Positions 8,985 through 31,255 of a stretch of DNA of 64,000 nucleotides are shown here, piece by piece; within the stretch, counting starts at the first letter, position 1; the number at the start of each line of letters is the position of its first letter. The stretch is from a virus, in the IMG/VR virus record IMGVR_UViG_3300034374_007216, positions 1-64,000 of that record. One strand, written 5' to 3'. The notes beneath the pieces were generated by a model. It saw only the letters and a program-made list of their open reading frames with translations. It made no database searches and was not told the origin of the DNA. The position numbers and the translations under genes are program-made.

Positions 8985-8998
8985 GATTTCACCGCCTT

Positions 8999-17400: not shown

Positions 17401-19355
17401 AGTACACCCCTCCCTTTTAACACCGCCATAACTCTATCCATAACATCATTTGATTTGTAATATTCGGCCAACATTCGCTGTCGTGGGTCGGCTATGCTCG
17501 CTTGTGCTCTTGCCTCAAGTTCAGTTAGCGGTGCATCACTTATTGGTTGTGGTCGTCGCCTTCCTGCCATTTCAAGCAACTGCCTAAAGTCAGCAGGTGA
17601 ATATTGTCCGATTTGTGGTCGAACTTGTTGAAATTGTTGCATAGGTGTAGCGGGATAAGTTGAGGGTACGGGTGTCACAGGGGATGCGTTCGGCGGAGAT
17701 ATAACCGAAGATGAGAGAGAAGGTTGTGAAGGAGGCAACCTTGCATCCCCTGCGACAGTAAGTGATGGGTCGAAGCCCTGTGTTGGTGCATAGTCACTGA
17801 TTTCGTGTAAATATGCATCCATGTGAGGCTCAAGACTATACGCATCATATTGCCCCGTTTCTGTGTTCATTGTTGGATAGTTGATGACATTTCTTGGCTT
17901 CATAGCCTCAGTTGGTATATCTCCAACTCCCATTTGTATATTATGACCTCTAAAACTTGCTTGATGGTTTGCAAGAGCCTCAATAATTGTTCTAAATCTA
18001 TCAACTTGCCCCATAAGTTTGTCACTATAATGAGCATTTGTAACTTTTAATTCATCAGCAGTTATTTGATGGTCGCCAAAATTACTTCTGCCTTGTTCTC
18101 CCGATGCACCCGATGCACGAGCAAGAGCAAGCACACGCTTGGCTGTTTCGTGTAATCCTTTACCACCTTTTTCACCAGCAGTAAGATATTGTGCTTGTTG
18201 TTCAAGTGAAAGTGCATCTTCATTAGCACCATATTTTTGAGCCATGTAATCGTATAATTTTTTAAAAGTACCTTGCCAATTACGACCAAACAAAAACATC
18301 ATAGCAGGTACATGTGACATATCTTCAATAAGTGCTTGGCGTAAATCGGGTGTTTGAAGAATTTCATGAAGAGGTCTGTTAATCATATCGGGATTTGCCA
18401 TTGTACCTTGATTGATTGTTACATTGATGTTAGGTATATGTTCCATACCTCCTTGTAAGGCTTCATCAATCATTGCGTAAGCCGCTTGATGCAAGTCTGT
18501 GGCTTTTTGTTTGCCTTTCTTTTGCAAGTTTTCTTTTAAATTAGGATAAAAGAAAATATCGGGCAAATGATGTGTAACACTCCATGTATGTACAGGGGTT
18601 TGGTCGCCGTAGTAACCTTCGGGAGCATGACCCATCATACCCGAATCAACTTCTCCGGGGTGTTGTTGAGCATGAGAACGAATATATCTTTCGGGAGCAG
18701 TATTTTTAGCATAAATATATGGTTTTGTTATCCACTGCATTGCATTTTTAATTTCCGCTTGAGGTATGCCTATATCTTCTAAAGCGTGTAATAATTGTTG
18801 ATGAAATGGAATATAATATGATTCAAGGAAACGACCAATAGGAGTTTTGTCATAATTTTTATTTGTGAGCATAGTAATTTTACTTCCACCATGTGTTCTT
18901 GATGGTCTATTTGTTATATATCGTGTAGCGTCGCCGGGTGGTAACGCATTAGCAAGTATTTTACGCCATTCTGGATGCATAATATTTGACAATTGATGTG
19001 AGTCTGCATTAGTGTGAGTATCATTAAATTGGTTAATTGCATGTTGTACAACCTCTTTAGGGTCAATATTGAGGCCTCGTGCCGCTAAAAATTCACCAAC
19101 ATGATGAATAACAGCATCAATTCCATGACGAAAATCACCCATTGCTGTTTGCCATACGAATTCTCCGTGTTTTCCTTCAACCCATTGTCCATCGTATGAA
19201 TTACCTTGACCGTCATGAGCGAATGCTGGAATATCGAATTGGTTTTCACCTGCACGAAAATGTGATGGTGGAGGATTTCTCAAAATTGCTGGTCCTGTTG
19301 GTGTGTGAGCCATAAGACTCCACCCCTTGAGCAATGGGTATCGAATCTGTATCAT
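17397..19355 (-). CDS. Hypothetical protein
   Basis: 652-aa ORF coupled to both neighbours, with N-terminal YPLLKG. Confidence 0.65.
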   Translation of the reverse strand: MIQIRYPLLKGWSLMAHTPTGPAILRNPPPSHFRAGENQFDIPAFAHDGQGNSYDGQWVEGKHGEFVWQTAMGDFRHGIDAVIHHVGEFLAARGLNIDPKEVVQHAINQFNDTHTNADSHQLSNIMHPEWRKILANALPPGDATRYITNRPSRTHGGSKITMLTNKNYDKTPIGRFLESYYIPFHQQLLHALEDIGIPQAEIKNAMQWITKPYIYAKNTAPERYIRSHAQQHPGEVDSGMMGHAPEGYYGDQTPVHTWSVTHHLPDIFFYPNLKENLQKKGKQKATDLHQAAYAMIDEALQGGMEHIPNINVTINQGTMANPDMINRPLHEILQTPDLRQALIEDMSHVPAMMFLFGRNWQGTFKKLYDYMAQKYGANEDALSLEQQAQYLTAGEKGGKGLHETAKRVLALARASGASGEQGRSNFGDHQITADELKVTNAHYSDKLMGQVDRFRTIIEALANHQASFRGHNIQMGVGDIPTEAMKPRNVINYPTMNTETGQYDAYSLEPHMDAYLHEISDYAPTQGFDPSLTVAGDARLPPSQPSLSSSVISPPNASPVTPVPSTYPATPMQQFQQVRPQIGQYSPADFRQLLEMAGRRRPQPISDAPLTELEARAQASIADPRQRMLAEYYKSNDVMDRVMAVLKGRGVL

Positions 19356-21001
19356 CCCATATGCCCCCTACGAGAAATAAGAATACCAGCAGGGTCAAGA
19401 CCCATTCTGCTTGAATTTGTTTCAAGATTTTGTGTTGGTCCATCATTCTTTTCATCTTCATCTTCATTGTTTTGAACACCTGCGGGGTGGTCGGGAACAT
19501 GACCGTTTTCAAACGCCGAGCCTCCACCTTGCATCGCTTTCTTTAATTTCGCTTCTCTTTCTTTTGCCGCAATAAGCCGACGCATTAAATTAAGCATTTC
19601 CATATGTCTTGCGAAATTTTTTGCTTTCAAAATGTCGCTTTGAGTTCTATCTTCACTCATCATAATACTTGATGGTGGTGCTGGCATACTTGGTACAGAT
19701 GATTGAACAGGTGGTAATTGTGGTGGCATCATTGGTGGCATCATTGGTGGTTGTGGAGGTCGTGGTGCTCTTACTCGTAGTGGTCGAAGTGATGGTTGTC
19801 GCATCATTCCCTTTTGTTGTGGCAACAATCCACCAAGACGACCCGCTCCTGTTGGACCAGCATAACTGCCTCGTTGTGCAAATCGAGCGTGTGGTGAAAA
19901 TGTAGTTCGCACATTACCAAGAATTTTTCTTGCCTCGGATTGACCTTGATAGGCTCGGTATCGTTGTGGGTCTTTACTCATCGGTTGTTTAGTCGCAATA
20001 CCCCTGTGGCTCATTTCAACGGCTAAGTGAGGCAACATCAAACCTGTTTTCTTACCACCTTTGATACCACGCATACGGGCTTTAAACCGTCGCATTGTTG
20101 CCCCTACCGGGTCCATGCCGCCGGGAGGTCGCTTGAATTGTCCTGTTGATGGTCGAAATTCTTGACGGGCTTCTTGTTTTCTGCGTCGTGCAATTGTGCG
20201 TGGTGTTTCTATTTTGAGCAAATTACTCCAAGCATCATCCATCGGCTCGCTCATAGTGAAACCTGTTTTTTCATTAAACGGTACATCAGTAAAATCACGA
20301 TATTCACCTTCTATATCATCAAACGGGGGTCGTGCATCATCAACAATAAAATTATGTAAATCATATAATCTATCAAAAAAATCTTCACGAGATGTAGCAC
20401 CTGCTAAATGGTCTATATCGGGTTGTGTAAAATCATCCCCAATTCCTTCGTATTCCCACGGTTTATCTATCAATTCTTGAATCCAATTATACCATTCGGG
20501 GTGAACATCATCACGATTTGGCATATTATATCTGTATTTGTATTGATTTTCTCCGGGGTGTACAGTAGGTTCTTCCTTCAACAATGTACTCCAAGCATCA
20601 TCCATCGGCTCGCTCATTGCGATTGGTAATGGTCCTGTCATTGCTGAACCTGTGCCTGTTTTAGCACCTGTAGCAAGGTCAAGTAAATTACCTCGACTAC
20701 CGGGCGGTCCACCTGTAAGTCCAATTTCACGCTCTTCATCTCTTTTGTTTGAATCATTCATAGCAACAGGGCTTTCTTCACCACGCAATCCTTGTGAAGC
20801 ACGAATTTTAATGTGTTTTATTTTACCCTTATTTGCTTTCTTTTCTTCTTCTTTGAGTTTCTTTTCTTCACGCTTTTGCTCATTGTATTCGGGTGAAGCG
20901 GGATTGTATTTTGTTTCATCTTCATTTGCAGATGAATACATCTTATCCGATTCACTACGAGGGTTATACAGGCGAGTGTCCGAACCTCTTCCCATAACCA
21001 T
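19352..21001 (-). CDS. Modular protein with two MSEPMDDAWSxLLK tags
   Basis: 549 aa. An acidic 121-aa module is bounded by the duplicated tag. Confidence 0.7.
   Translation of the reverse strand: MVMGRGSDTRLYNPRSESDKMYSSANEDETKYNPASPEYNEQKREEKKLKEEEKKANKGKIKHIKIRASQGLRGEESPVAMNDSNKRDEEREIGLTGGPPGSRGNLLDLATGAKTGTGSAMTGPLPIAMSEPMDDAWSTLLKEEPTVHPGENQYKYRYNMPNRDDVHPEWYNWIQELIDKPWEYEGIGDDFTQPDIDHLAGATSREDFFDRLYDLHNFIVDDARPPFDDIEGEYRDFTDVPFNEKTGFTMSEPMDDAWSNLLKIETPRTIARRRKQEARQEFRPSTGQFKRPPGGMDPVGATMRRFKARMRGIKGGKKTGLMLPHLAVEMSHRGIATKQPMSKDPQRYRAYQGQSEARKILGNVRTTFSPHARFAQRGSYAGPTGAGRLGGLLPQQKGMMRQPSLRPLRVRAPRPPQPPMMPPMMPPQLPPVQSSVPSMPAPPSSIMMSEDRTQSDILKAKNFARHMEMLNLMRRLIAAKEREAKLKKAMQGGGSAFENGHVPDHPAGVQNNEDEDEKNDGPTQNLETNSSRMGLDPAGILISRRGHMG
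20224..20617. repeat. Perfect 31-bp direct repeat pair (20224-20254, 20587-20617)
   Basis: tactccaagcatcatccatcggctcgctcat occurs twice, 363 bp apart (in frame). Confidence 0.9.
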
Positions 21002-21678
21002 TATTCAACCCCCATGTTTTCTTGCAATTGGCGTTTTATACGCATCCAAGTTTCGGGGCTTTCTTTACCCAACTCAACTTGAAGAATGTTAAATGTTTGA
21101 TTGACTTGTTGCCCATCACTCTTTGCACCCCATTGGTCTTGGAAACGCAACAAGTCTTTGACAGTTTCTCGTACTTCTTTATGAAGAGCGACAGCATCTC
21201 GTACAAACCCATCTTCATGTACAGTTCCTTCATCAAGTAGTTCACTTAGTTTGTGATTTAATTTCTCAGCATTTGAACGGAGTAAAGCAATTTCTTGACC
21301 CGCAACAAGTGCCACTTCCATAGCCGCAGATTTTTGGACAAGTGGTTGAAAATGACTCTTCATATGACGATATACAACAGTTTCTTTTATCTCTAATTGA
21401 TTTGCTATTTCATCGGATGTAATTTCATTTGAGAAATAAGCGGTTTCATACTCAGCACGCATTGGTGTAGTACACACAGGACACGATTCATTTGCCGCTT
21501 CGTAATATTCACCCATATGATTTCGATAATGACGGTCTGCGGTGTTCTGCCTCCACCCCATATCTTTATCCAATTGACGAGCAGAAATGTGGCCTTGAAG
21601 CATCTCTTCTTCTAATGAATCACGCTCTTCGGAAATGCAAAAAGCACAGGAACGCTTGACTATACGCTCCGCCGCCAT
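21001..21678 (-). CDS. Putative terminase small subunit / Zn-finger HTH protein
   Basis: Two CxxC...RHxxxH repeats plus a coiled coil. Located upstream in the packaging operon. Start taken at MAAER. Confidence 0.4.
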   Translation of the reverse strand: MAAERIVKRSCAFCISEERDSLEEEMLQGHISARQLDKDMGWRQNTADRHYRNHMGEYYEAANESCPVCTTPMRAEYETAYFSNEITSDEIANQLEIKETVVYRHMKSHFQPLVQKSAAMEVALVAGQEIALLRSNAEKLNHKLSELLDEGTVHEDGFVRDAVALHKEVRETVKDLLRFQDQWGAKSDGQQVNQTFNILQVELGKESPETWMRIKRQLQENMGVE

Positions 21679-21738
21679 GAGCGTTCTATAGAGTTCAAGT
21701 TCAAAACAATTATGGATGAAAGGTGCTTCCAACATACC

Positions 21739-22050
21739 ATGTGGGGGCGAAAACGAATAGCCAAAATACCCCTCACAAAAGAAACGCTTCAAAGCCTAAC
21801 AAACGCCGCATCCGATGTTTGTCATGGTCGTTTTGCTCCAAAACACATTGTAGCCGAGCGTTTAAGAATTTGTTCAACTTGTCCTTACGGCGGTACAAGA
21901 TGTGATTTGTGTGGCTGTTTTATCAAAACAAAAGTATCACTATTGAATTCTAAATGCCCAATAGAAAAGTGGTCAAGCCCCTCTCGTGATGCGGGAATAG
22001 ACAGCACTCAAGAAAATAGTGCTGGCGAAGATTCCAATGACAAGGTATGA
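21739..22050 (+). CDS. Small Cys-rich protein (RLxICxxC...CxxCGCF...CPxxKW family)
   Basis: Recognisable phage Cys motif ERLRICSTC...CDLCGCFIKTK...CPIEKW. Confidence 0.6.
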   Translation: MWGRKRIAKIPLTKETLQSLTNAASDVCHGRFAPKHIVAERLRICSTCPYGGTRCDLCGCFIKTKVSLLNSKCPIEKWSSPSRDAGIDSTQENSAGEDSNDKV

Positions 22051-22215
22051 TGCTTTTTCCGAGCCAAGTGTATCTCCTTTAAACAAGAGAATCATTGTAA
22101 GAGCCACAATGAATGAAATAATTTGTACCATAATCATGTCAATAATCACGCTTCGATTTGGGTTTAAAACATCAAGTGTTGTTGCGGCAAATGAAGATGG
22201 AAGGTATTTATCCAT
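21973..22215 (-). CDS. Small membrane protein (2 TM)
   Basis: Two hydrophobic stretches in 80 aa. Confidence 0.6.
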   Translation of the reverse strand: MDKYLPSSFAATTLDVLNPNRSVIIDMIMVQIISFIVALTMILLFKGDTLGSEKASYLVIGIFASTIFLSAVYSRITRGA

Positions 22216-22216
22216 A

Positions 22217-22852
22217 TTATCTTCCTCCCGTTATAATACTACGAGCAAATGAACCAACACCGCCTCCAACTTTTTGCATCATTCCCTCATCAGCAAGTGC
22301 TGAATGTAGCATACCACCCATCATTGATTGTTGTGCAAAATATGCTAATTGTTGTTGGTTTTGTTCAGCCGCATTAATGTTTTGTTGTGCGGTGCTTTGA
22401 AGAGATGAAAAATGAGATTTTACATTTTCACTGCTAATGGTTTGCAAGTGTTGTGGTAATTTTGATACATCAAGTGTCATTGTTCCATTATCTTCGTCAA
22501 TGTTGAATGTAGCATTTCGCAATATTTCAAGAACTGAAAACGAAATAAGTGAAGATAACATATCAATCATTAAGCCCATTTGATTACTTGCAATAAACCT
22601 GTCAATAGGCACTATACCACGAAGCAACATGATTTGCAATTCCATATCGGATGGTGGAGTAATTGGTTGCTGACCCCATTGACTTGCTTGGCCTCCCGTC
22701 ATACCGTTCATGAACGCCCCTGTGCCACCTTGCATCATTGGTTGTTGTGTTGCCCACGGATTTTGCATTTGCATAGGAGAATTTCCCATTGATGCACCTA
22801 AATTTAACGCACCATTGCTATTTGTATATTGTGTGCTACTCAAACCTAACAT
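22217..22852 (-). CDS. Gln/Met/Gly-rich hypothetical protein
   Basis: Co-oriented ORF in the GTPase cluster. Confidence 0.6.
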   Translation of the reverse strand: MLGLSSTQYTNSNGALNLGASMGNSPMQMQNPWATQQPMMQGGTGAFMNGMTGGQASQWGQQPITPPSDMELQIMLLRGIVPIDRFIASNQMGLMIDMLSSLISFSVLEILRNATFNIDEDNGTMTLDVSKLPQHLQTISSENVKSHFSSLQSTAQQNINAAEQNQQQLAYFAQQSMMGGMLHSALADEGMMQKVGGGVGSFARSIITGGR

Positions 22853-22853
22853 C

Positions 22854-23783
22854 TTACTCGATACCCCCAAACATTTCTTGTTCAAGAGCATTTTGGTTAT
22901 TTATCATATCTTGAAATGAGGCAGTTGGTTGGTTCATCATAAATAATTCATGCTCAAAAATCCTCAAATCAAATGTAATTGTAGTGATGTCATTGCGATT
23001 AGTCATTGGATTTGTATAATGAGTAATTGTAATTCCATTGGTTTTCTTTGAATCTCGAATCAACTCATCAAGGAACGGTTCATATTTTTGCAACATTTCG
23101 GGTGTTGGGTCTTTTTTCTTAAATGAAGAAACCGGCACAGTAACTACGCTGACTCCTTTTTTCACTTGGTCACGAAGTCTTTTTGGATTAGCCTCTCTAA
23201 TTTTATCTTCTTCTGCTTCCCACTTGCAAAGAAGATGATACAAATGCATGTGTTCGGGGCAATATGTACCTTTCATTTTTCGACCATTCGTAACTTTTTC
23301 TTTTGCTACAAATGCTTCGGCTTGCCCCGTAACAGGGTTTTGCCAATACAATTCCCAAAGTGTATTACCTGTATCTTCATCGCATATTTTGGCATAGAGA
23401 TTATCATATTGAATGAGTGTAGCACAATCGCAACCATCAACAACGCACATACTTGATTGTTTATCGTAGCGATATTTACGACCAAAAAACAATCGAAGAG
23501 GATTTAACAAATTTCTTTTTGATGGAGTGAGCAATCGGTATGCTTGTTTAATGTCTTTTTTTCTTGCTTTGTTTGGGTCGGGATGGCGACTTGGATAAAA
23601 ATTGACTTTTGGAACTTCTAAGTTTGCTTGATTTGCAATGTTTTGCATAGACTGTTGAGCGGTGGCTTGCTCTAACAAAGCGGCATGACTTAACCCTGCA
23701 TTTCCTTGTTGGCTTAGTGCGTACAAATGTGCTTCATTTGCATCCGATAAACGATACTGTGGTTCTCGATAAAAATTCATCAT
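22854..23783 (-). CDS. Hypothetical protein with putative Zn-binding CxxxxC...CxxH
   Basis: 309 aa, contains CVVDGC and YCPEH. Confidence 0.6.
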   Translation of the reverse strand: MMNFYREPQYRLSDANEAHLYALSQQGNAGLSHAALLEQATAQQSMQNIANQANLEVPKVNFYPSRHPDPNKARKKDIKQAYRLLTPSKRNLLNPLRLFFGRKYRYDKQSSMCVVDGCDCATLIQYDNLYAKICDEDTGNTLWELYWQNPVTGQAEAFVAKEKVTNGRKMKGTYCPEHMHLYHLLCKWEAEEDKIREANPKRLRDQVKKGVSVVTVPVSSFKKKDPTPEMLQKYEPFLDELIRDSKKTNGITITHYTNPMTNRNDITTITFDLRIFEHELFMMNQPTASFQDMINNQNALEQEMFGGIE

Positions 23784-23950
23784 TGTGAATCACCTTTTAT
23801 TTGTGCTGTAAAACCATTGCTGGTTTGTACAATACTCCATTCTATTTTTGTTCCTTTTTTAAGATTTAGAAATTCTGCTATCCACATTGGAATAACAGTT
23901 CTTACACTTTTTGTATCTTTTCCTACTGATGCTACTGTTGTTTTTGTCAT
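23780..23950 (-). CDS. AbrB/SpoVT-like transcription regulator
   Basis: SVRTVIPMWIAEFLNLKKGTKIEW is an AbrB-type signature. GGTGA SD before MTKTT. Confidence 0.7.
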   Translation of the reverse strand: MTKTTVASVGKDTKSVRTVIPMWIAEFLNLKKGTKIEWSIVQTSNGFTAQIKGDSQ

Positions 23951-23958
23951 ATTATCAC

Positions 23959-24675
23959 CTATGCTGTAAGTAAATTTACCATTGTATTTTCCACATTCCA
24001 ACCTATTCTCGTTGCCATGAATGATTTTCTTGTTGGTACACCTGCTTTTTGCAAACGAATTAAATCATCACGAAAAGCATCAAATATTTTGTGTTCTCCT
24101 ATTCTGTCTTGCCCCCACAACATTGCGGCAGTTTCATCAAAAAACCTATCCGCTTTGTTTGCTACAATCATAATTAACTTTGGAATATATTTTTTACCTT
24201 TCCATCTGCTTTTTAAATTTCTATATCGGTATTGTCTATGTACGATAGCATCCACTAAATATTTGAAACCAGCAATTTGTTGTAATGCTTCTTCGCCGCC
24301 TTTCAACACTCTATCGTCAAATATATACACAATTGCTTCGGCTTGTCGAGTTACCATGTCATCAATCCATAGATTCCAAAAACGCTCTTGACCACCTATA
24401 TCGGATGAAAATACAACACGCTTTTGACCTTTCCATGAAATACGCTTTCGTGTAGGTTTTGGAAGTAAATACCTACCGAGAATTCGCATATGTTCAGTAC
24501 GCTCTTCTAACGGTATGTCTTCCATTTCACCGGGTGTTGTCATAAAACGGTCAAGTGTAGTTTTACCAACTAATCCCGCACCGTAAATACCGACCTTGCG
24601 TGGCTTCCATGAGTTGTATAGGGTTTGACCCCATATTGCCGCACCGACAACCGCCGAGCCAACGGGTTCAACCAT
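23959..24675 (-). CDS. Ras-superfamily (Arf-like) small GTPase
   Basis: G1 GAGLVGKT, G3 DIGGQ and G4 NKAD, with an N-terminal hydrophobic/amphipathic extension. Confidence 0.8.
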   Translation of the reverse strand: MVEPVGSAVVGAAIWGQTLYNSWKPRKVGIYGAGLVGKTTLDRFMTTPGEMEDIPLEERTEHMRILGRYLLPKPTRKRISWKGQKRVVFSSDIGGQERFWNLWIDDMVTRQAEAIVYIFDDRVLKGGEEALQQIAGFKYLVDAIVHRQYRYRNLKSRWKGKKYIPKLIMIVANKADRFFDETAAMLWGQDRIGEHKIFDAFRDDLIRLQKAGVPTRKSFMATRIGWNVENTMVNLLTA

Positions 24676-24928
24676 CTAACCACCCCAATACCCAATTTCC
24701 AAAATCTTCGACTTTGTTCCAAAACCATTCCACTGTATTTACCCATAACGATTCACCTGTTATGTTTTCCCATAAACTCACAAACATCATACCTAAAATT
24801 GTAAAAAGAATTGTTCTTATCCATCCAATACCTTTTTCGTAATAATTATCAAGTGTGTTTTGCGTATGCAATGCTCGTAGCGTAGCCTCAGTCGAATCAT
24901 CTTCGGGAGTTTTAAAGATTCGACCCAT
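24668..24928 (-). CDS. Small membrane protein
   Basis: One TM segment plus a Trp-rich amphipathic C-terminus. Confidence 0.6.
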   Translation of the reverse strand: MGRIFKTPEDDSTEATLRALHTQNTLDNYYEKGIGWIRTILFTILGMMFVSLWENITGESLWVNTVEWFWNKVEDFGNWVLGWLDG

Positions 24929-24939
24929 GAGGTATCACC

Positions 24940-25509
24940 TCACTCTTCTTTCTTTTGAAAACGCTTATCTGGTGTTCCATCTTTTTTTAATGTAACATCT
25001 TCATCTGCAATACCCAAACCTAAATTGATTGGTTGTTTAATTTCAGCAGTATGTTTTGGCGGATTTTCAATAAGTTTGTTTTCTTCTTTAAAAGCGGATG
25101 GTGCATCTATAACACCCCAAGACGGCGGCATTTTACCGGGATTTAACTCCATCCATCTAAGTTCTGCTTCAAGTTGTGCTTCTTGCACTCTTATTTCCAT
25201 TTCCGACCTGCGTGCATCAAATTGATTTTGCATGTTACGGTATCGAAAACTGCGTTCTCTCTCAATGTTTTGAAGGCGTACTTTTTCTTGCATGTTTTGT
25301 TCAAAGAACATTTTGAAGAAATAATACGCTATACCTTGTACAAAAAATGCCGCCATAGCGTAAGTGAACCCGTTCACTACGGGGTCATTACTGTTTAGCC
25401 ACATATCTGCATCAAAGAAACCTATTGCCAATCCTACAAGTGCAGATTGGGCAAGAATTAGCCCCATTAGTCGTATTTCAGCCTCGGTTGTGTTACTATT
25501 CGGTTGCAT
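24940..25509 (-). CDS. Membrane protein (2 TM + coiled coil)
   Basis: Two hydrophobic helices, then a coiled coil and a KKDGTPDKRF tail. Confidence 0.65.
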   Translation of the reverse strand: MQPNSNTTEAEIRLMGLILAQSALVGLAIGFFDADMWLNSNDPVVNGFTYAMAAFFVQGIAYYFFKMFFEQNMQEKVRLQNIERERSFRYRNMQNQFDARRSEMEIRVQEAQLEAELRWMELNPGKMPPSWGVIDAPSAFKEENKLIENPPKHTAEIKQPINLGLGIADEDVTLKKDGTPDKRFQKKEE

Positions 25510-25551
25510 TGTCCTCACTCTTGGTCAAAAATATGGTCATTATAACTGTTT

Positions 25552-25725
25552 CGCTTTATTCACTTTATTCAAAACTTTATTCACTCAAATGACTATTCCT
25601 ACTTTATTCACTTTATTCATAGTGTCTTAAAATAATATATAATAAATAATAGAGGTATAATGAATAATGAATATTTGCTTTGGTCATTTTGGTGAATAAA
25701 GTTTTGAATAAAGTGAATAAAGTGA
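25552..25725. repeat. Origin-like element 1: perfect 31-bp inverted repeat of CTTTATTCA iterons around an AT-rich core
   Basis: 25554-25584 ctttattcactttattcaaaactttattcac is the exact reverse complement of 25692-25722. Confidence 0.8.
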
Positions 25726-25729
25726 GTGC

Positions 25730-26193: not shown

Positions 26194-28524
26194 TTACAAC
26201 TCCCGAAGAGTTCCCTTGTCTTTGAAATGTCTTGCCCTGTTTTCATGTTCTCCTTCAAGAGTTAATTTGCCACCTTCGGTGTGGCTGATGTCTTTATGGT
26301 CGTGGCTACCGTATATGCCACGCTTTCTTCGTTCTTGGTTAAGTTGCTCTCTATACTTTATTCTTTCGGGGCTGGACTCATACTTCTTGTCGTACTCCAA
26401 CTTGTGCCGCTTGGCTTCGGGGCTTACACGCTCTTTGAGCAGTTGAAAGGCGATTTCCATAGGTTCGCTGGCGAGTTTCTTCCATTGAGAGGGGTGTACT
26501 GCGTGCGCTCTTACGGGGTCAAGGAGGCCATCGGGTTTAGTATCACCAAAATCAATACCACCGGGCATTTCCGCTTGCGAGTCTTGCCATGCGTCAAACA
26601 TTATTTCCATTACTGCTCGGTCTAATTCCTCTTTTGTAGTAGGAAAATGATTTTGAAAAGCCATATTCATGAAGTAATTTCCTTGATTATTCAAAAAGGA
26701 TAACTTGTCATCATCACTCATGTTTTCCACATAATCCCACAAAGAATTGGTAGTAGCAATAAGTTGTTCATCTGCTTCATCATTCCATATTTGTTCATGA
26801 GGATGAATGTACTCTTCGTCTTGATAATCAATGTCTTCCTTGAGCAGTTGGAAGGCGATGTTCATTGGTTCGCTGGCGAGTTTTTCATCTTCATTTTCTG
26901 CTTCTTCATTTTCTGGCTCTTGCTTTTTAGGCAACCGCACAGTTAATGGTTTTCTGTTTGTATATACATTAACAGGGTTTGCAATTCCCATTCTTTTTCT
27001 TTCTTCATTTGCCGCCTGTAATTCATCTAATCTATTTTGCCATAACATTTCGCCTCTTTTCTTATCATCTGCTCTTTTTTCCCAATAGGTTAAGGGTACG
27101 AAATCTGGCGATGACTCATTAGTTGTTCTAAAATTTAAATGATTTCTGCCGGTATCTCTCATAGTATTTTTTAAATTGTTAATAAATCTTACATCCATAT
27201 CATCCGGTTTATCCAAACCTAATGGATAATTGGGTAAATTTTCCATTGGTGCTATATTTTCATTCAATCTAAATCGGGGGCTGAATAACCGGTAGCGGAG
27301 TAATTGACTATAATCATTTTTGAGCAACCGCAAAGCGATGTCCATTGGTTCGCCTGTGTATTTCATTTGGTCGGCTTCACTAAAACCAGCATTATCACAC
27401 ATTTCATCATATAATTCATATTCCATTATTTCTTCACAACTTGCGTTTTCAACTTCTTCTATCAAAGATTCCATATATTTTAACGCTTCGTGCTTATGCG
27501 GAGTTTCATATTCGGGGTCATTTTCCTCACCAAAAGTCCAATTAGGCCCATCTTCATCTTCATCTTCAATTATCTGATTTAGGTAATTTTGGTAATCTGA
27601 AAGTATTTCTGTTCTAACAGTTTCAGCACAAGAGCAAGGGTCATTATTTTCTATTGTTTGCATATCTATCATGGGTGTATCTTCTTGCATTGGTGCTTGC
27701 TCTTCAACACTTTGAGTCATTGGAGGTTGCAATTCAAGGCTTTGTTTGAGCAGTTGGAAGGCGATTTCCATTGGTTCACCTTTTGGAAATGTAAAATCCG
27801 TTAATGGTTCATTTAAAAGTTGTTGATTTTTACTCCATTGTTGAAATGGGTCGTGAAAATCCTCAATAGATTCCCATGATTGAGGTGTTCGCTCAAGAGT
27901 AACGGGTGAAACATCTTCACTAAGAACAGGTGGTATTCCATATGCTATCAATTGTTTTGCGGCTTCAATTTCCTTTTCTTTTAATTCATCAATAGATAAA
28001 TTATTCGTTGGCATTAAAGCAGTTGCCGCCATTCTTAATGCATGAAAATCTATAGGTCTGTTTGTAATTCTTTGAATATCACTTTCTGGTACATCGCCAT
28101 AAATTATACCTTCGGGTTGCAAGACTTCTGCATATCTTTGTGGTGTATTTTTACCTTCAAACCCATAAAGATGCAACGGTCTATTTCCATGCTTGTAACT
28201 TGAAGGCACATCTGCTTTTGAATGCGATTGAAAATCGGGATTGAATGAAAATAATTCTGCGGGATATGTAAAACGGCCACCTAAAGGTACTCCGTCTAAT
28301 TCCAAAGGTAATTTATCTATATTTTTGTGTCGAGCGTATCTTAGGTTATTTCTAAAAAATACATTTTCTCCACTCATTAACGACCTTGCTTCTGCTGGTG
28401 TTTTGTATTCTGCTGGTTGCATTCTAAGTGAATGTATGCTTCCACCTAACGGGTTCACATCTTCAAGATACTGCCGATACTCTTGGGGCGAAATGTACGC
28501 TTTGCGTATCGCCACCTTCCGCAT
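26194..28524 (-). CDS. Polyprotein-like modular protein with four EPMxIAxxLLK tags
   Basis: 776 aa in five modules. The last module is HNH-like (DISH...ENRAR). Confidence 0.75.
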   Translation of the reverse strand: MRKVAIRKAYISPQEYRQYLEDVNPLGGSIHSLRMQPAEYKTPAEARSLMSGENVFFRNNLRYARHKNIDKLPLELDGVPLGGRFTYPAELFSFNPDFQSHSKADVPSSYKHGNRPLHLYGFEGKNTPQRYAEVLQPEGIIYGDVPESDIQRITNRPIDFHALRMAATALMPTNNLSIDELKEKEIEAAKQLIAYGIPPVLSEDVSPVTLERTPQSWESIEDFHDPFQQWSKNQQLLNEPLTDFTFPKGEPMEIAFQLLKQSLELQPPMTQSVEEQAPMQEDTPMIDMQTIENNDPCSCAETVRTEILSDYQNYLNQIIEDEDEDGPNWTFGEENDPEYETPHKHEALKYMESLIEEVENASCEEIMEYELYDEMCDNAGFSEADQMKYTGEPMDIALRLLKNDYSQLLRYRLFSPRFRLNENIAPMENLPNYPLGLDKPDDMDVRFINNLKNTMRDTGRNHLNFRTTNESSPDFVPLTYWEKRADDKKRGEMLWQNRLDELQAANEERKRMGIANPVNVYTNRKPLTVRLPKKQEPENEEAENEDEKLASEPMNIAFQLLKEDIDYQDEEYIHPHEQIWNDEADEQLIATTNSLWDYVENMSDDDKLSFLNNQGNYFMNMAFQNHFPTTKEELDRAVMEIMFDAWQDSQAEMPGGIDFGDTKPDGLLDPVRAHAVHPSQWKKLASEPMEIAFQLLKERVSPEAKRHKLEYDKKYESSPERIKYREQLNQERRKRGIYGSHDHKDISHTEGGKLTLEGEHENRARHFKDKGTLREL
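26435..27777. repeat. Four dispersed in-frame direct repeats (26435, 26840, 27320, 27746) encoding the tag
   Basis: Repeat unit ttgagcagttg.aaggcgat...cat.ggttc. Copies 1 and 2 match at 40/44 nt. Spacings are 405, 480 and 426 bp. Confidence 0.85.
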
Positions 28525-28575
28525 GGTATTTCTAAACGCCCATAAATTAAAGAATTATCGCCTTATGCGATGTGC

Positions 28576-30453
28576 ATGAGTCGTGTTGCTGTCAAGAAAG
28601 GCAACGACGACATCGAGAAAGAATTAGCCGGAACTGTTGGTGGAGCGGCGGCTGGTAGGTTGGCTGGTGCGGCTATTGGTAGTATTGTACCGGGAGTAGG
28701 CACTGTTATTGGTGGTATGTTAGGTGGTGCTTTAGGAGCAAAAGTTGGAGATAAAATTACTGATGCGGCGGGTGTTGGAGGTCAAGCCCCAAGTAGTACA
28801 CAAAACTCGATGGCATCTTCATCAATGGCTACATCGGGTTCGGACAACACTCAAGCAGGTCAAGAAGACAACGCCGAACAATTATCCGCCCAACAATCAG
28901 CCGCTCAAAGAGCAGGTGGGGCGGCGATGGCAATAGGCCAACATTTTGCACAGCAACAACAAATGCAACAACAGAACAATCAACAAATGGCTGAAAAGGC
29001 TAAGCAAAATTCACAAATTCAAACAGGCGAGCCGATGGATATGTCATGGCGTTTGTTAAAAGATATTTATTTTAATCAATTATACAATAAACCAGAATAT
29101 GCTCAAGCAAGACAACAAATCATTGATGCGGCTATTGAAAACATGCAAAATGTTCAATATTCACCAGATACTCATGCAAGGATTCGTGCCGGATTTCCGG
29201 GGTATGAACCATCTCATACAATAAATGGTCGAAATTTTTATACAGATGAACTTGGTCAAGATATAGATGCTCGATACCCCGAAGATTACATGTATGACCA
29301 AGAACATAGTAACCAAAAAAGATTTCCCGGCATGGTTAATATTCCACCATATCATTTAATGGATGCTATGAAAAATTTTGTTGATTGGGAAAATATACCT
29401 TTAGTCACAGAAGGTGAAAAAGTAGGTCAAAAAAAAGATGTAGGAATTGAAAATCTATTTGGTATTGGTACACCATATAAACGACAAGAACCTTATCGTG
29501 GTGTTTTACAAGAAAGATTAGGAGGATTACCTTCTGTTAAAACATTTCTTGGTAGGGATATGAGATATAAACCAGAAAGTACAGAAAATATTCACCATAG
29601 TTATTTTATGCATCCTAATTTAGAGCGTGGGCAAAATTTGCTTGAAGCAAATATTGAAAGACAAAAAGAACAAAAACGATTAGCAGAAGAAGCAGAAGCA
29701 GAACAAAAACGATTAGCAGAAGAACAACGAATAAAAGATGAAAATAGAAAAAGACAACAAGCGATAAATAGAGAAACAAGGAAAAAGAAAAAATTAGCCG
29801 ATGAAGCAGGTTTAACTGTTGAAGAATGGGAAAAAGCAGAAGAAGAAAGAATAAAAAGAGAGAAAAAAGAAGAAAAAGCAAGAATAAAAGCAGAAAAAGA
29901 ACAAAAATTACAAGAAACAATTGCAGAAAACCAACGAATAATTCAAGCAAAAATTCAAGCAAAAATAGAACGAAACAAAAGAGAAGAAAATTTCCCAAAC
30001 GATGTTAATGAAGTTCCCGAAGATGTTTTAAATACAGAAGAAGGGCGTAAAATAGCATCTAAATGGGAAAGAATTGGAAATAGAGTTTATTATAATAAAA
30101 GTCCTGTTGAAGACATGACTGATATAAGAAATGCGTGGAACATAGATTGGAAAGAAAAAGTTCTTGCTGTTGCTGTTGGGCGTAAATTAGGTTATATTAA
30201 AAAATCCGAACCAATGGATTTGGCTTGGCAACTTCTTAAAAATGAACTACAACTTCCACTTCGCTTAGGAGAAAAAATTCGTGAAGATGTCATGGCACTT
30301 GACAGGCAACACAAAATAATGGACAATCCCGATGGCACGCTAATTCAAAACATTCATCCCGACATGGAAAATGTCGTTAAGTTGCTCACAAATATGGAAG
30401 CCGATAAACAACCTGTACCTACACGGCCTTCAAGACCTGCATACCTGTTTTGA
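28576..30453 (+). CDS. Modular protein with glycine-zipper N-terminus and two EPMD tags
   Basis: Gly-zipper GAAIGSIVPGVGTVIGG, tags GEPMDMSWRLLK and SEPMDLAWQLLK, and a charged coiled coil. Confidence 0.7.
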   Translation: MSRVAVKKGNDDIEKELAGTVGGAAAGRLAGAAIGSIVPGVGTVIGGMLGGALGAKVGDKITDAAGVGGQAPSSTQNSMASSSMATSGSDNTQAGQEDNAEQLSAQQSAAQRAGGAAMAIGQHFAQQQQMQQQNNQQMAEKAKQNSQIQTGEPMDMSWRLLKDIYFNQLYNKPEYAQARQQIIDAAIENMQNVQYSPDTHARIRAGFPGYEPSHTINGRNFYTDELGQDIDARYPEDYMYDQEHSNQKRFPGMVNIPPYHLMDAMKNFVDWENIPLVTEGEKVGQKKDVGIENLFGIGTPYKRQEPYRGVLQERLGGLPSVKTFLGRDMRYKPESTENIHHSYFMHPNLERGQNLLEANIERQKEQKRLAEEAEAEQKRLAEEQRIKDENRKRQQAINRETRKKKKLADEAGLTVEEWEKAEEERIKREKKEEKARIKAEKEQKLQETIAENQRIIQAKIQAKIERNKREENFPNDVNEVPEDVLNTEEGRKIASKWERIGNRVYYNKSPVEDMTDIRNAWNIDWKEKVLAVAVGRKLGYIKKSEPMDLAWQLLKNELQLPLRLGEKIREDVMALDRQHKIMDNPDGTLIQNIHPDMENVVKLLTNMEADKQPVPTRPSRPAYLF

Positions 30454-31255
30454 TTTCATCAACAATTGCTGATGAAATTTTTAGTTTCTCTTCATTTACG
30501 CCTGTTTCAAAACCCCACACATGAAGGTACTTCACAAGTTTTTCAGTTGAAATGTTTGCACCACTTTTTTCGGCAAAAGGACAACCACCAAGCCCTCCTA
30601 TGCTACTATCGAATTCAGTAATGCCGTAAAACAAACCGCTTTGAATTATTTTTATAGCCTTTTCTTCATCTCCTTTATGGTGCAAGTGCAACGCAGGTTT
30701 TATTTTCTCAGCAATTGAAATGCTTGCCATGTCTTTCACCTGCCAAATTTCACCGATGCCTACGGTGTCTGCAAACACAACCGTCGAGCCAAATAATTTT
30801 GCATCACGAATACAATTTTTCAATACTAAGTTTGTAACTTTACCGGTGTACGGAGAGCCAAACGCCATGCTAAGATACACTCGCACATTTTCTTTTGGCA
30901 CACCATTGAGCATCGTTTGATACATTTGCACAATTTCACTGCGAGTCTTTTTCATGTTTCGCATGTTAAATTCTTCACACGGTGAAAACACGATGTTGAA
31001 TTTTTCCGCCCCTGCCGCTTTTGCTCGGTCAAAGCCACGCTGATTCATGACAAGTACGCCGCCATGCTGAAACACCTGCTCCGCATCAGCCATCTGCGGA
31101 ACAAGTTTAGGGTGAGCGAAACTTACTTCTTCGACGCTCTCCAACCCCGCATCGTAAAGTGAATGGATAAGACGCACTTTAGTTTCAGTGTCAATAATTT
31201 GTTTGATATTTTGTAATCCATCTCTCGGACCTACTTCGTACACTGAAACACGCAT
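30419..31255 (-). CDS. hmgL: Hydroxymethylglutaryl-CoA lyase
   Basis: EVGPRDGLQN, ADTVG, HLH and GLGGCPFA...GANISTE motifs of the DRE-TIM HMG-CoA lyase family. Confidence 0.88.
   Translation of the reverse strand: MRVSVYEVGPRDGLQNIKQIIDTETKVRLIHSLYDAGLESVEEVSFAHPKLVPQMADAEQVFQHGGVLVMNQRGFDRAKAAGAEKFNIVFSPCEEFNMRNMKKTRSEIVQMYQTMLNGVPKENVRVYLSMAFGSPYTGKVTNLVLKNCIRDAKLFGSTVVFADTVGIGEIWQVKDMASISIAEKIKPALHLHHKGDEEKAIKIIQSGLFYGITEFDSSIGGLGGCPFAEKSGANISTEKLVKYLHVWGFETGVNEEKLKISSAIVDEIKTGMQVLKAV

What the first reader, a model, noticed from the sequence alone, without database searches (positions are those of the whole stretch)
21973..25509. Viral Arf-like small GTPase in an operon of membrane proteins
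Seen: intact G1 (GAGLVGKT), G3 (DIGGQERF, close to the Arf DVGGQ) and G4 (NKAD), plus an N-terminal amphipathic extension. It is co-oriented with three TM proteins, an AbrB regulator, a Zn-binding protein and a Gln-rich protein. Known: Arf/Sar GTPases remodel membranes in eukaryotes, and related GTPases are expanded in Asgard archaea. Inference: an undescribed GTPase-controlled membrane remodelling or lysis/egress module for a host with no peptidoglycan.
Basis: partly seen in the sequence, partly recalled or inferred. Interest (0 to 1): 0.72.

Follow-up and report, generated by a model that had tools for sequence, protein, structure and literature searches.

The report
Small-GTPase membrane cassette, archaeal virus
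A tailed virus of marine archaea carries its own very divergent small GTP switch, always next to an orphan Cys/His protein and small membrane proteins, which may act on the host membrane late in infection but is untested.

Summary
Window 21973-25509 (minus strand) is a tightly packed block: two membrane proteins, a 238-aa small GTPase, an AbrB/MazE-like gene, a 309-aa Cys/His orphan, a Gln-rich protein and a two-TM protein.

- **GTPase:** G1, G3 (D..G), G4 and G5 are intact. The residue at the catalytic-Gln position varies (Q/E/D/H). The fold model is confident (pLDDT 89.9).
- **Conservation:** it is the most conserved gene of the block in 80 of 80 close loci. In 175 of 177 loci from four virus groups, down to about 31% identity, a Cys309-family gene lies directly downstream.
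- **"Arf-like":** only a leaning. Profile and fold searches put Arf, Sar1, SRbeta and Asgard ArfR first. Pfam Arf does not match the window protein. Trees cannot separate Arf, Rab/Ras or ArvA kinship.
- **AbrB gene:** optional, found in 57 of 80 close loci.
- **Position:** the cassette lies in the morphogenesis arm in two different gene orders.
- **Function:** a late, membrane-directed role (egress or remodelling) is an untested inference.

None of the searched paper texts mentions it. This scan found the same cassette before on other genomes.

The parts
24940..25509 (-). TM192: membrane protein. One hydropathy segment passes the threshold (17-35). A second (about 48-70), a coiled-coil-like stretch and a charged tail are my reading of the sequence.
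   Evidence: ORF (the list gives GTG at 25518; ATG at 25509 follows a GAGG). Hydropathy. No Pfam, PHROG, NCBIfam or PADLOC family. Homologue upstream of the GTPase in 79 of 80 close loci, 4 of 4 P0128-group loci and 9 of 13 P0126-group loci by HMM.
24668..24928 (-). TM86: small single-pass membrane protein with a Trp-rich tail. Its end overlaps the GTPase start by 8 nt.
   Evidence: Present in 79 of 80 close loci and 13 of 13 P0126-group loci by HMM. A 72-79 aa hydrophobic ORF sits at the same place in the P0128 and P0147 groups.
23959..24675 (-). 238-aa divergent Ras-superfamily small GTPase with a 26-aa N-terminal helix and a basic insert (RQYRYRNLKSRWKGKKYIPK) before beta5.
   Evidence: Motifs. 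AlphaFold2 model pLDDT 89.9, pTM 0.87. VIA Z 17.4-15.1 to Arf6, Sar1, SRbeta, Arl2, G-alpha and Arl13B. 473 homologues. Most conserved gene of the block in 80 of 80 loci.
23780..23950 (-). AbrB/MazE (SpoVT-AbrB)-like small protein, 56 aa from the ATG. An optional insert between the GTPase and Cys309.
   Evidence: Pfam PF04014 matches 13 of 14 homologues at E<=1 (best 8.5e-6). The window copy scores only E 0.079. NCBIfam PrlF E 0.021. Present in 57 of 80 close loci. In 22 of the 23 without it the two neighbours lie 23-103 nt apart, and 663 nt apart in L038. Not found in the 97 loci of the three divergent groups.
22854..23783 (-). Cys309: orphan protein with a conserved basic motif (P70..A73 R74..I78..L85.P87) and a possible Cys2His2 site (C113, C175-P176, H178, H183). 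The constant partner of the GTPase.
   Evidence: Alignment A5. No Pfam or PDB relative and no usable ESM Atlas hit. 628 homologues, named only 'hypothetical protein' where a source gives a name. Directly downstream of the GTPase in 175 of 177 loci.
22217..22891 (-). Q224: Gln/Asn/Met/Gly-rich protein with one marginal hydrophobic segment (106-124).
   Evidence: Present in 80 of 80 close loci and 13 of 13 P0126-group loci by HMM. A 231-272 aa protein with a similar low-complexity start sits at the same place in the P0128 and P0147 groups, but the HMM detects it in only 1 of 4 and 2 of 80 loci.
21973..22215 (-). TM80: small two-TM protein, the last gene of the block.
   Evidence: Present in 80 of 80 close loci and 12 of 13 P0126-group loci by HMM.
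25519..25729 (.). 211-nt intergenic region upstream of the cassette. Inverted arrays of a CTTTATTCA-type unit flank an AT-rich core, followed by a TTATAA about 40 nt before the ATG.
Evidence: Read directly. Promoter function was not tested.
21712..22050 (+). Antisense, convergent 112-aa Cys-rich ORF. It overlaps the 3' end of TM80 and marks the 3' boundary of the cassette.
   Evidence: Conserved on the opposite strand at the same place in 49 of 80 close loci. Weak DUF6171 match, E 8.4e-5, below the cut-off.

Best explanation
The block is a virus-specific late-gene cassette of magrovirus-like tailed archaeal viruses.

Its centre is a very divergent Ras-superfamily small GTPase that keeps the guanine-nucleotide-binding motifs and carries an N-terminal hydrophobic/amphipathic helix. 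The GTPase is always paired with an orphan Cys/His protein (Cys309) and is flanked by small membrane proteins and a Gln-rich protein.

[quoted passage not shown] There it organises or times the action of the cassette's small membrane proteins at the end of infection, either for membrane remodelling or permeabilisation and virion release from a wall-less host. Cys309 would be its dedicated regulator (GAP-like) or effector.

Shown here: the genes, the motifs, the fold, the pairing, the conservation and the position in the morphogenesis arm.

Inferred only: GTP hydrolysis, membrane binding, the GTPase-Cys309 contact, late timing, and the egress role.
For: **A GTP-binding switch.**
- G1 GxxxxGKTT, G3 D92..G95, G4 NKAD and G5 MAT are invariant in 20 close homologues.
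- D92, G95 and N173 are invariant, and G32, G37, K38, T39, T40, K174 and D176 at least 90% conserved, across 31 sequences down to about 25% identity.
- The small-GTPase fold model has pLDDT 89.9. VIA Z is 17.4/17.3 to Arf6, 16.8 to Sar1 and 16.4 to SRbeta.

**Strong selection.** It is the most conserved gene of the block in 80 of 80 loci, median identity 71% against 45-62% for the other five core genes of the cassette and 44% for the AbrB-like gene.

**Membrane leaning.**
- The N-terminal extension is 21-28 aa, and predicted helical (residues 5-23) in the window protein, with an 11-residue moment of 0.36-0.78.
- That resembles Asgard ArfR (0.49-0.81) and ArvA (0.37-0.72). Asgard Rab/Ras-like proteins mostly have under 11 residues before beta1; the 7 longer ones (12-22 aa) score 0.18-0.43.
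- The helix aligns with the N-terminal helix of GerdArfR1 (8oun) in profile searches.
- Three membrane proteins sit in the same tightly packed block.

**Module.**
- Order and strand are kept in 80 of 80 close loci (TM192 and TM86 in 79 of 80).
- A Cys309-family gene follows the GTPase directly in 17 of 17 and 78 of 80 divergent loci.

**Late or morphogenetic setting.**
- In the window the cassette is co-oriented with, and upstream of, the terminase, portal, protease and MCP genes.
- In the P0147 group it lies three small genes after an SU10-type MCP.

**Precedent.** Archaeal N-helix GTPases act on membranes. ArvA drives vesicle formation (PMC10927574, passages read). DipA is described as a membrane-binding GTPase (PMC13228585, passages read). 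ArfR binds membranes through its helix (bioRxiv 10.1101/2024.02.28.582541, passages read).
Against: - No experiment or expression data bears on function.
- The residue at the catalytic-Gln position varies (Q/E/D/H in close homologues, also A or F further out), so hydrolysis chemistry is uncertain.
- The N-terminal segment as a whole has a low 18-residue moment (about 0.2) and no window reaches a TM-like hydropathy (maximum 1.06).
- None of the membrane proteins matches a holin or any other family.
- A place inside the morphogenesis arm fits an assembly role equally well.
- The cassette was not found in cultured haloarchaeal relatives. tblastn of the GTPase against 50,697 phage records gave no match, although their MCPs are the nearest named ones. 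It is therefore not needed by all such viruses.
Confidence: 0.4

Rival explanations
1. Morphogenesis factor. The GTPase cassette helps build virions, for example as a membrane-anchored assembly or packaging platform or a tail or DNA-delivery assembly aid, rather than releasing them.
For: In two lineages with different gene orders the cassette sits among structural genes. In the window it is upstream of terminase, portal, protease and MCP. In the P0147 group it lies three small genes after the MCP. Its neighbours on both sides carry the repeated EPMD.AW..LLK tag, which another report reads as a capsid-loading label.
Against: Tailed viruses have no membrane, and three of the core genes encode membrane proteins. 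None of the cassette proteins carries the tag: the regex scan found it only at 20611 and 20248, inside P549. No match to any PHROG structural family. HVTV-1-type relatives with a related MCP show no detectable homologue.
Confidence: 0.2
2. Host take-over of division or vesiculation. The viral GTPase works like the archaeal ArvA/DipA membrane GTPase and redirects host cell division or vesicle budding. Cys309 and Q224 would be functional analogues of the Zn-ribbon, disordered partner ArvC/DipC.
For: hhalign links the viral profile to Asgard ArvA over the N-helix, P-loop and switch I, with 'IPxExRT' aligned to 'IPHETR' (probability 93.9%, 50 columns). The tree with viral and ArvA rows held together is not rejected and has the highest likelihood found (p-AU 0.61). 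The layout of GTPase, small protein, then Cys-containing protein with low-complexity parts recalls arvA-arvB-arvC (PMC10927574; PMC13228585).
Against: The hhalign match covers only 50 of 238 positions. There is no OapB/ArvB (PF09846) match in the 82.8-kb virus record. G3 is DxGG in the viral protein, not DxPG as in the ArvA sequences I extracted. Both groups sit on long branches, so attraction is possible. Whether the presumed Marine Group II hosts have ArvA/Dip at all was not tested.
Confidence: 0.12
3. Membrane-level superinfection exclusion, or a defence or counter-defence switch.
For: Small membrane proteins together with a nucleotide switch and an AbrB/MazE-type gene are seen in exclusion and toxin-antitoxin-like modules (recalled general knowledge, not tested). 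The AbrB gene comes and goes between close relatives.
Against: No PADLOC match for any of the seven cassette proteins or for the two neighbouring proteins scanned with them. Accessory defence genes are usually variable, whereas this GTPase is the most conserved gene of its neighbourhood and keeps one partner across four virus groups. The block sits in the late structural arm, not among early genes.
Confidence: 0.08

Closest known systems
Arf-family small GTPases (eukaryotic Arf6, Sar1, Arl2, Arl8, Arl13B; SRbeta; Asgard ArfR such as GerdArfR1, PDB 8oun/8oum)
   Same: Highest fold scores: Arf6 Z 17.4/17.3, Sar1 16.8, SRbeta 16.4, Arl2 15.4, Arl13B 15.1. Best profile hits in the PDB: 8oun E 1.1e-6, then Arl8A 8.9e-5, using a profile without the doubtful bridging sequences. 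The N-terminal helix aligns with the ArfR helix. The G3 region D-x-G-G-x-x-x-[FY]-W-x-x-W aligns with Arf D-x-G-G-Q-x-x-x-R-x-x-W. His or Gln at the catalytic position in some members recalls Sar1 (the Sar1 motif is recalled, not tested).
   Different: Pfam Arf does not hit the window protein at E<=1. Only the outlying P0205 passes the Arf cut-off. The Gln is not conserved. There are about 60 extra residues in three inserts. The front half of the N-helix is Gly/Ala-rich and hydrophobic, not amphipathic. The tree does not nest the family in the Arf clade, although that placement is not rejected (p-AU 0.54). hhalign scores an Asgard Rab/Ras profile higher, 85.8 against 69.7. No ArfGAP or Sec7-type partner is present; instead there is an orphan Cys/His protein.
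ArvA/OapA/DipA archaeal membrane GTPase with ArvB (OapB, PF09846) and ArvC (Zn-ribbon) partners
   Same: An archaeal-world small GTPase with an N-terminal membrane-targeting helix, encoded in a compact operon with a small protein and a Cys-containing, partly low-complexity protein (PMC10927574 and PMC13228585, passages read). Local profile similarity over the N-helix, P-loop and switch I. Sister placement is not rejected.
   Different: No OapB homologue in the virus record. Similarity is limited to 50 columns. G3 differs (DxGG against DxPG). Cys309 is 309 aa and no library scan of it returned any family at E<=1. It was not compared directly with ArvC or PF09845. The viral cassette adds three membrane proteins.
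Ras-superfamily GTPases encoded by giant viruses of eukaryotes (e.g. mimivirus Rab, PDB 5xc5)
   Same: A virus-encoded Ras-superfamily GTPase. The fold match to 5xc5 is Z 14.5.
   Different: Those are close copies of host Rab proteins in eukaryotic viruses (recalled). This one is a virus-only clade: 85 hits among 1.84 billion representatives, most of them fragments, and the nearest ESM Atlas clusters are all viral. It occurs in a tailed virus of archaea and has its own orphan partner.
Phage lysis cassettes (holin and partners beside the packaging or structural genes)
   Same: Small one- and two-TM proteins of 80-190 aa in a compact block next to the terminase and head genes. The comparison with lambda S-R-Rz lying ahead of Nu1/A is recalled, not tested.
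   Different: No holin, endolysin or spanin family match. No known lysis cassette includes a small GTPase (my knowledge only, not searched).

Membership tests
Ras superfamily / TRAFAC small GTPase | G1 P-loop GxxxxGK[ST], G3 DxxG, G4 NKxD, G5 SA-type motif | tested here: met
   GAGLVGKT, DIGG, NKAD and MAT are invariant in 20 close homologues. D92, G95 and N173 are invariant and the P-loop at least 90% conserved in 31 sequences.
Ras superfamily / TRAFAC small GTPase | Six-stranded small-G-domain fold | tested here: met
   AlphaFold2 pLDDT 89.9. At least 500 Foldseek matches at E<=0.001; the 50 listed are all Ras-superfamily GTPases, E about 1e-8. VIA Z up to 17.4 over 160-170 residues.
Ras superfamily / TRAFAC small GTPase | Catalytic Gln after DxxG | tested here: not met
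   The window has Q96, but the column reads Q/E/D/H in close homologues and also A or F further out. Some accepted members also lack it (Sar1 His, Rap Thr; recalled), so this does not exclude membership.
Arf family (Arf/Arl/Sar/ArfR) | Match to the family model (Pfam PF00025) above its cut-off | tested here: not met
   No Arf hit for the window protein at E<=1 (Roc 0.0083, Gtr1_RagA 0.18). 11 of 31 family members match at E<=1. Of the 10 divergent members scanned individually, only P0205 passes the cut-off (36.2 bits against 22.3).
Arf family (Arf/Arl/Sar/ArfR) | N-terminal amphipathic helix before the G domain | tested here: inconclusive
   The 26-aa extension is predicted helical at residues 5-23. 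The back half is amphipathic (moment 0.46; family range 0.36-0.78, like ArfR at 0.49-0.81). The front half is hydrophobic and Gly/Ala-rich. Membrane binding was not measured.
Arf family (Arf/Arl/Sar/ArfR) | Interswitch toggle coupling nucleotide state to release of the helix | not testable with these tools
   Only one predicted conformation is available. It needs GDP- and GTP-state structures.
Arf family (Arf/Arl/Sar/ArfR) | Phylogenetic placement inside the Arf/ArfR clade | tested here: inconclusive
   In a 57-row quick IQ-TREE the viral and bridging rows form their own clade (SH-aLRT 97) outside ArfR, Arf-like, Rab/Ras, ArvA and MglA. AU tests: held with Arf, p 0.54; with ArvA, p 0.61. The grouping with Rab/Ras is already in the best tree at support 80. 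All reference sequences came from Asgard genomes.
ArvA/DipA system | Adjacent OapB/ArvB (PF09846) gene | tested here: not met
   No PF09846 match in the 82,798-nt virus record at E<=0.01. The same search matched Haloferax volcanii and Methanosarcina acetivorans controls.
ArvA/DipA system | Full-length similarity of the GTPase to ArvA | tested here: inconclusive
   hhalign probability 93.9% but only 50 aligned columns. Sister placement is not rejected.
ArvA/DipA system | Zn-ribbon ArvC/DipC partner | not tested
   Cys309 was not compared directly with ArvC or PF09845. Library-wide Pfam scans of Cys309 and its homologues returned no such family at E<=1.
SpoVT/AbrB-MazE fold (the 56-aa gene) | Match to Pfam PF04014 | tested here: inconclusive
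   The window copy scores E 0.079, 13.4 bits against a cut-off of 24.7. 13 of 14 homologues match at E<=1, best 8.5e-6. A profile search of the PDB found nothing.
Holins (TM80, TM86, TM192) | Match to a holin family; small size with 1-3 TM and a charged C-terminus | tested here: inconclusive
   No family match in Pfam, PHROGs or NCBIfam. Size and TM count are compatible. Topology alone does not define a holin.

The most novel reading that the evidence does not exclude
The cassette is a self-contained, GTP-timed egress machine. A virus-made small GTPase, switched by its own orphan Cys/His partner, docks on the archaeal membrane and triggers small viral membrane proteins to open or bud the membrane of a wall-less host. 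That would be the first release mechanism defined for tailed archaeal viruses, and a Ras-superfamily switch that evolved within prokaryotic viruses.
Probability: 0.22. Interest if true: 0.85.

Novelty: new variant of a known kind. Interest (0 to 1): 0.6.

Why it matters
How tailed viruses leave archaeal cells is not known. The review I read in passages (PMC10791045) lists three egress modes: virus-associated pyramids, budding and pyramid-independent membrane disruption. It only speculates that enveloped viruses might exploit a host small GTPase.

These marine viruses are very abundant. More than 598 IMG/VR stretches carry a relative of the window's MCP, and Philosof et al. 2017 report high abundance (abstract and passages seen). 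Any conserved late module therefore matters for ocean carbon turnover.

For GTPase evolution, this is a virus-only clade of the Ras superfamily with an N-terminal membrane-type helix, in a virus whose presumed hosts lie outside the Asgard archaea. It bears on how widely such membrane switches spread among archaea and their viruses.

The hosts are uncultured, but the proposal can be tested by expressing the genes in a model archaeon and by biochemistry.

Tried and rejected
- **Single-sequence and narrow-profile searches.** The window protein alone gives only Roc E 0.0083 in Pfam and E about 0.08-0.1 to IFT22, RabL5 and 8oun in the PDB. The profile of 20 close homologues (A1) finds nothing significant in the PDB.
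- **First fold model.** The model from A1 was poor (pLDDT 67.4) and its Foldseek list was uninformative. I replaced it with the A3 model.
- **Foldseek on the good model** does not separate Ras subfamilies.
- **Bridging sequences.** The first strong ArfR hit (6.5e-10) came from a profile that included P0203, P0205 and P0202, and P0205 is itself Arf-like. I repeated the search without them: 8oun is still first, at 1.1e-6.
- **hhalign scores** against Asgard Rab/Ras, Arf and ArvA profiles are not comparable across profiles of 18, 7 and 11 rows, and do not favour Arf.
- **Complex prediction** (GTPase with GTP and Mg against Cys309): 'no answer', score 0.00 against a mark of 0.32. This is no evidence either way.
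- **Prevalence test.** I searched five 48-64 kb records that carry the MCP and found the GTPase in 0 of 5. All five contigs end before the place where the cassette would lie (it is about 23 kb upstream of the MCP in the window; contig ranges), so the result says nothing.
- **RNA runs.** No RNA holder was listed, and read laying was not used.
- **Named viruses.** tblastn of the GTPase against 50,697 phage records gave no match. Named magrovirus records did not appear there, so I could not assign a magrovirus group.
- **Cellular genomes.** Three loci appeared in one scan of the species-genome collection, all on 8-16 kb contigs of MAGs labelled Promethearchaeati, Maricaulis and Parvibaculum. I read them as mis-binned viral contigs.
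- **Context of other divergent members.** P0205, P0158 and P0157 have no relatives in viral contigs, so their context stays unknown.
- **Cys309.** No PDB, Pfam or usable ESM Atlas lead.
- **Defence.** No meaningful PADLOC match.
- **Literature.** 'magrovirus' with 'GTPase' gave 0 papers. 'GTP' does not occur in the main texts of PMC5434244, PMC10160649, PMC11706807 or PMC10768690, and 'GTPase' does not occur in PMC8651126 or PMC13465236. Supplementary gene tables are closed and may list the gene. JGI's automatic name 'GTPase SAR1 family protein' exists for some homologues.

Full report
**What is there.**
Between two intergenic gaps, 25519-25729 and roughly 21793-21972, lie seven minus-strand ORFs that overlap or are 12 nt or less apart:
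- TM192 (24940-25509/25518)
- TM86 (24668-24928)
- a 238-aa GTPase (23959-24675)
- a small AbrB-like gene (23780-23950, if the ATG is used)
- Cys309 (22854-23783)
- Q224 (22217-22891)
- TM80 (21973-22215)

Kyte-Doolittle scans give one segment over threshold in TM192, one in TM86 and two in TM80. They also give a marginal segment in Q224, and none in the GTPase or Cys309.

The upstream gap holds inverted arrays of a CTTTATTCA-type unit around an AT-rich core. A TTATAA lies about 40 nt before the ATG at 25509, which is preceded by GAGG. At the 3' end a conserved antisense ORF (21712-22050, plus strand) converges on TM80.

**What the window is.**
- The minus-strand arm from about 28.5 kb to 0.75 kb also holds a terminase large subunit, a portal, a prohead protease and an SU10-type MCP.
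- The plus-strand arm holds an SNF2 helicase, a clamp-loader-like ATPase and a family-B DNA polymerase.
- An HMG-CoA-lyase-like gene lies at 30419-31255.
- The record is an IMG/VR virus contig of 82,798 nt, estimated 77% complete.
- The nearest named MCPs are those of the haloarchaeal viruses HVTV-1, HCTV-5 and HCTV-1, at 34-37% identity.
- This layout matches the ICTV profile of Aoguangviridae, order Magrovirales (PMC10768690, passages read). That profile describes two oppositely transcribed arms, a viral replisome and an HMG-CoA-related gene.
- I therefore call it magrovirus-like. No named magrovirus record was available to match.

**The GTPase.**

*Single-sequence searches are weak.*
- Pfam gives Roc at E 0.0083, below the cut-off.
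- PDB phmmer gives E about 0.08-0.1 to IFT22, RabL5 and 8oun.

*The family is large but narrow.*
- 473 proteins match at E<=0.01. The 120 listed are 75-94% identical, nearly all 238 aa, on marine contigs up to 150 kb. Some are auto-named 'GTPase SAR1 family protein' by JGI.
- A profile search of 1.84 billion representatives found only 85 hits at E<=0.001, mostly fragments.
- In the ESM Atlas the nearest 13 clusters are all viral. Bacterial clusters follow, in which 17-67% of members carry Pfam Arf.
- Only 3 loci appeared in the scan of the species-genome collection, on short contigs of unrelated MAGs.

*Conservation of the motifs.*
- In 20 close homologues the invariant columns include the P-loop (G32, G37, K38, T39, T40), D92, G95, NKAD and M220-A221-T222. 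They also include T46-T47-P48-G49-E50-M51 and R59-T60-H62 in the switch-I region.
- Across 31 sequences down to about 25% identity, D92, G95 and N173 stay invariant and the P-loop stays at 90% or more.
- The residue after GG, the catalytic Gln of Ras or Arf, is Q, E, D or H in close homologues and also A or F further out.

*Fold.*
With the deeper alignment AlphaFold2 gives pLDDT 89.9 and pTM 0.87. The model is a canonical six-stranded G domain with four additions: an N-terminal helix (5-23), a long switch-I loop, a basic helix insert (154-162) and an insert after G4.

**Is it Arf-like?**

*For:*
- VIA-align against 48,161 chains ranks Arf6 (Z 17.4, 17.3), Sar1 (16.8), SRbeta (16.4), LokiRagO (15.7), Arl2 (15.4), G-alpha (15.2) and Arl13B (15.1). 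These stand above Rab28 (14.6), mimivirus Rab (14.5) and Ras-like chains (about 13).
- The family profile without doubtful members (A4) hits GerdArfR1 (8oun) first at E 1.1e-6. Arl8A follows at 8.9e-5, Rab33B at 1.7e-3 and KRas at about 0.03. The N-terminal helix is included in the 8oun alignment.
- The identity of 8oun and 8oum comes from bioRxiv 10.1101/2024.02.28.582541 (passages read).
- The N-terminal extension (21-28 aa, 11-residue moment 0.36-0.78) resembles the Asgard ArfR and ArvA sequences I extracted. It does not resemble the Asgard Rab/Ras-like proteins.

*Against:*
- Pfam Arf does not match the window protein at E<=1. Roc matches more members (14 of 31) than Arf (11 of 31).
- The one member above the Arf cut-off, P0205, is the most distant and may not belong to the family.
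- hhalign gives a score of 85.8 to a profile of 18 Asgard Rab/Ras-like proteins. It gives 69.7 to 7 Arf-type and 54.0 (only 50 columns) to 11 ArvA. Profile depths differ.
- In a 57-row tree the viral and bridging rows form their own clade (SH-aLRT 97) outside every reference group.
- AU tests do not reject the viral clade held with Arf (p 0.54) or with ArvA (p 0.61). The best tree joins it to Rab/Ras with support 80.

*Conclusion:* it is a Ras-superfamily small GTPase of a virus-only clade. It leans towards Arf/Sar/SRbeta in fold and profile, but family membership is unresolved.

**The cassette.**

*Close relatives (80 loci, GTPase 65-83% identical).*
- The order TM192-TM86-GTPase-(AbrB)-Cys309-Q224-TM80-HTH263-P549 and the strand are kept in 80 of 80 loci.
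- TM192 and TM86 are found in 79 of 80; the missing locus is cut at its end.
- The GTPase has the highest identity of the block in 80 of 80 loci. Median identities are 71% for the GTPase, 62% for Cys309, 61% for HTH263 and 45-54% for the membrane and Gln-rich proteins.
- The AbrB-like gene is found in 57 of 80 loci. In 22 of the other 23 the GTPase and Cys309 lie 23-103 nt apart, and 663 nt apart in L038.
- Its homologues match Pfam MazE_antitoxin in 13 of 14 cases at E<=1, best 8.5e-6. The window copy scores only 0.079.

*Three more distant groups.*

| Group | GTPase identity | Loci | Cys309-family gene directly downstream |
|---|---|---|---|
| P0128 | about 30-32% | 4 | 4 of 4 |
| P0126 | 36-39% | 13 | 13 of 13 |
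| P0147 | about 31-33% | 80 kept of 140 relatives | 78 of 80 |

Loci come, and the counts from tblastn and HMM searches. The P0147 count rests on the HMM alone, at E about 1e-7.

- Together with the close group that makes 175 of 177 loci.
- By position, a two-TM or one-TM protein and a 72-79 aa hydrophobic protein precede the GTPase in the five loci whose ORF maps I read. A low-complexity protein of 200-270 aa follows Cys309 in the same loci.

*Cys309.* It has invariant C113 and C175-P176, with H178 and H183 in 13 of 14 sequences (L138 lacks them). It also has a conserved basic motif near residues 70-87. No relative with a name or structure turned up.

**Where it sits.**
In the window's group the cassette is upstream of the HTH263, P549, P652, terminase, portal, protease and MCP genes. 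In the P0147 group it lies three small genes downstream of an SU10-type MCP. The cassette therefore keeps to the morphogenesis or late arm in two different gene orders.

**How it most likely works.**

*Shown here:*
- a conserved nucleotide-binding small G domain with an N-terminal helix;
- a constant orphan partner;
- small membrane proteins in the same compact block;
- a place among late genes.

*Known from the literature (passages read):*
- Asgard ArfR binds membranes through its N-terminal helix in a nucleotide-dependent way.
- Haloarchaeal ArvA drives vesicle formation together with two operon partners, one of them a Zn-ribbon protein proposed as a GAP (PMC10927574).
- The same proteins, as DipA, DipB and DipC, are reported as a membrane-bound oscillator that places the divisome (PMC13228585).

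*Inferred:* the viral GTPase is a membrane-docking switch, Cys309 is its regulator or effector, and the membrane proteins are its targets. Together they would remodel or open the host membrane late in infection.

I put about 0.4 on this late membrane-directed reading as a whole. Within it, I put about 0.22 on a true egress or lysis machine. The rivals are a morphogenesis aid (0.2), an ArvA/Dip-like take-over of division or vesiculation (0.12), and exclusion or defence (0.08).

**Novelty.**
- The searches listed under Tried and rejected found no paper text that mentions the gene. Supplementary tables were closed.
- Automatic annotation already calls some homologues a GTPase.
- This scan has reported the same cassette on other genomes at least six times, with the same general verdict.
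It also adds the fourth (P0147) group, where the cassette lies after the MCP. Finally, it shows that the AbrB gene is optional and that an antisense ORF bounds the block.
- I class it as a new variant of a known kind: a Ras-superfamily switch in a new, virus-only form, with an undescribed partner set.

Noticed in passing
window 21712-22050 (+): A 112-aa Cys-rich ORF lies antisense to the late arm. It overlaps the 3' end of TM80 and the annotated 5' end of HTH263. It is conserved on the opposite strand at the same place in 49 of 80 related loci (50-58% identity in the six rows printed). It has a weak DUF6171 match, E 8.4e-5, below the cut-off.
   Followed up: partly
window 25519-25729: An inverted array of CTTTATTCA-type units around an AT-rich core lies just upstream of the cassette. 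An earlier first-reader note reads it as origin-like. It could equally be the cassette's regulatory region.
   Followed up: no
window 19352-21001 (-), 26194-28524 (-), 28570-30453 (+): The large ORFs on both sides of the cassette carry repeats of an EPMD.AW..LLK-type peptide (translations). The strict pattern was found at 20611 and 20248. None of the seven cassette proteins has it. Another report of this scan reads it as a capsid-loading tag.
   Followed up: partly
window 21001-21792 (-): HTH263, directly after the cassette and conserved in 80 of 80 close loci, has Cys pairs and weak HTH matches (HTH_20 E 0.012; phrog_867 'DNA binding domain' E 0.0016). It may be a small-terminase-like or regulatory protein.
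   Followed up: no
L135 4250-5785 and L138 3820-5481: In the P0128 group a 511-553 aa ORF precedes the cassette. By eye its N-terminus looks like a thermosome/GroEL-type chaperonin. This was not checked against any family library. The ICTV profile mentions chaperonins in aoguangvirids.
   Followed up: no
L082, L083, L084 (MAG contigs of 8-16 kb): Copies of the GTPase 71-75% identical to the window's sit on short contigs of MAGs labelled Promethearchaeati, Maricaulis and Parvibaculum. These are most likely viral contigs binned by mistake.
   Followed up: partly
Asgard genome handles G001-G296; loci L095-L114: The OapB/ArvB family PF09846 was found in 93 of 301 Asgard genomes (89 above the cut-off). 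An ArvA-type GTPase lies beside it in 19 of the 20 loci I read. The ArvA paper counted 8 of 183 Asgard genomes with its own criterion (PMC10927574, passage read).
   Followed up: no
window 3252-9002 (-): A 1916-aa ORF in the head-gene region has only a weak ATP-dependent DNA ligase domain match, E 7.7e-4, below the cut-off.
   Followed up: no
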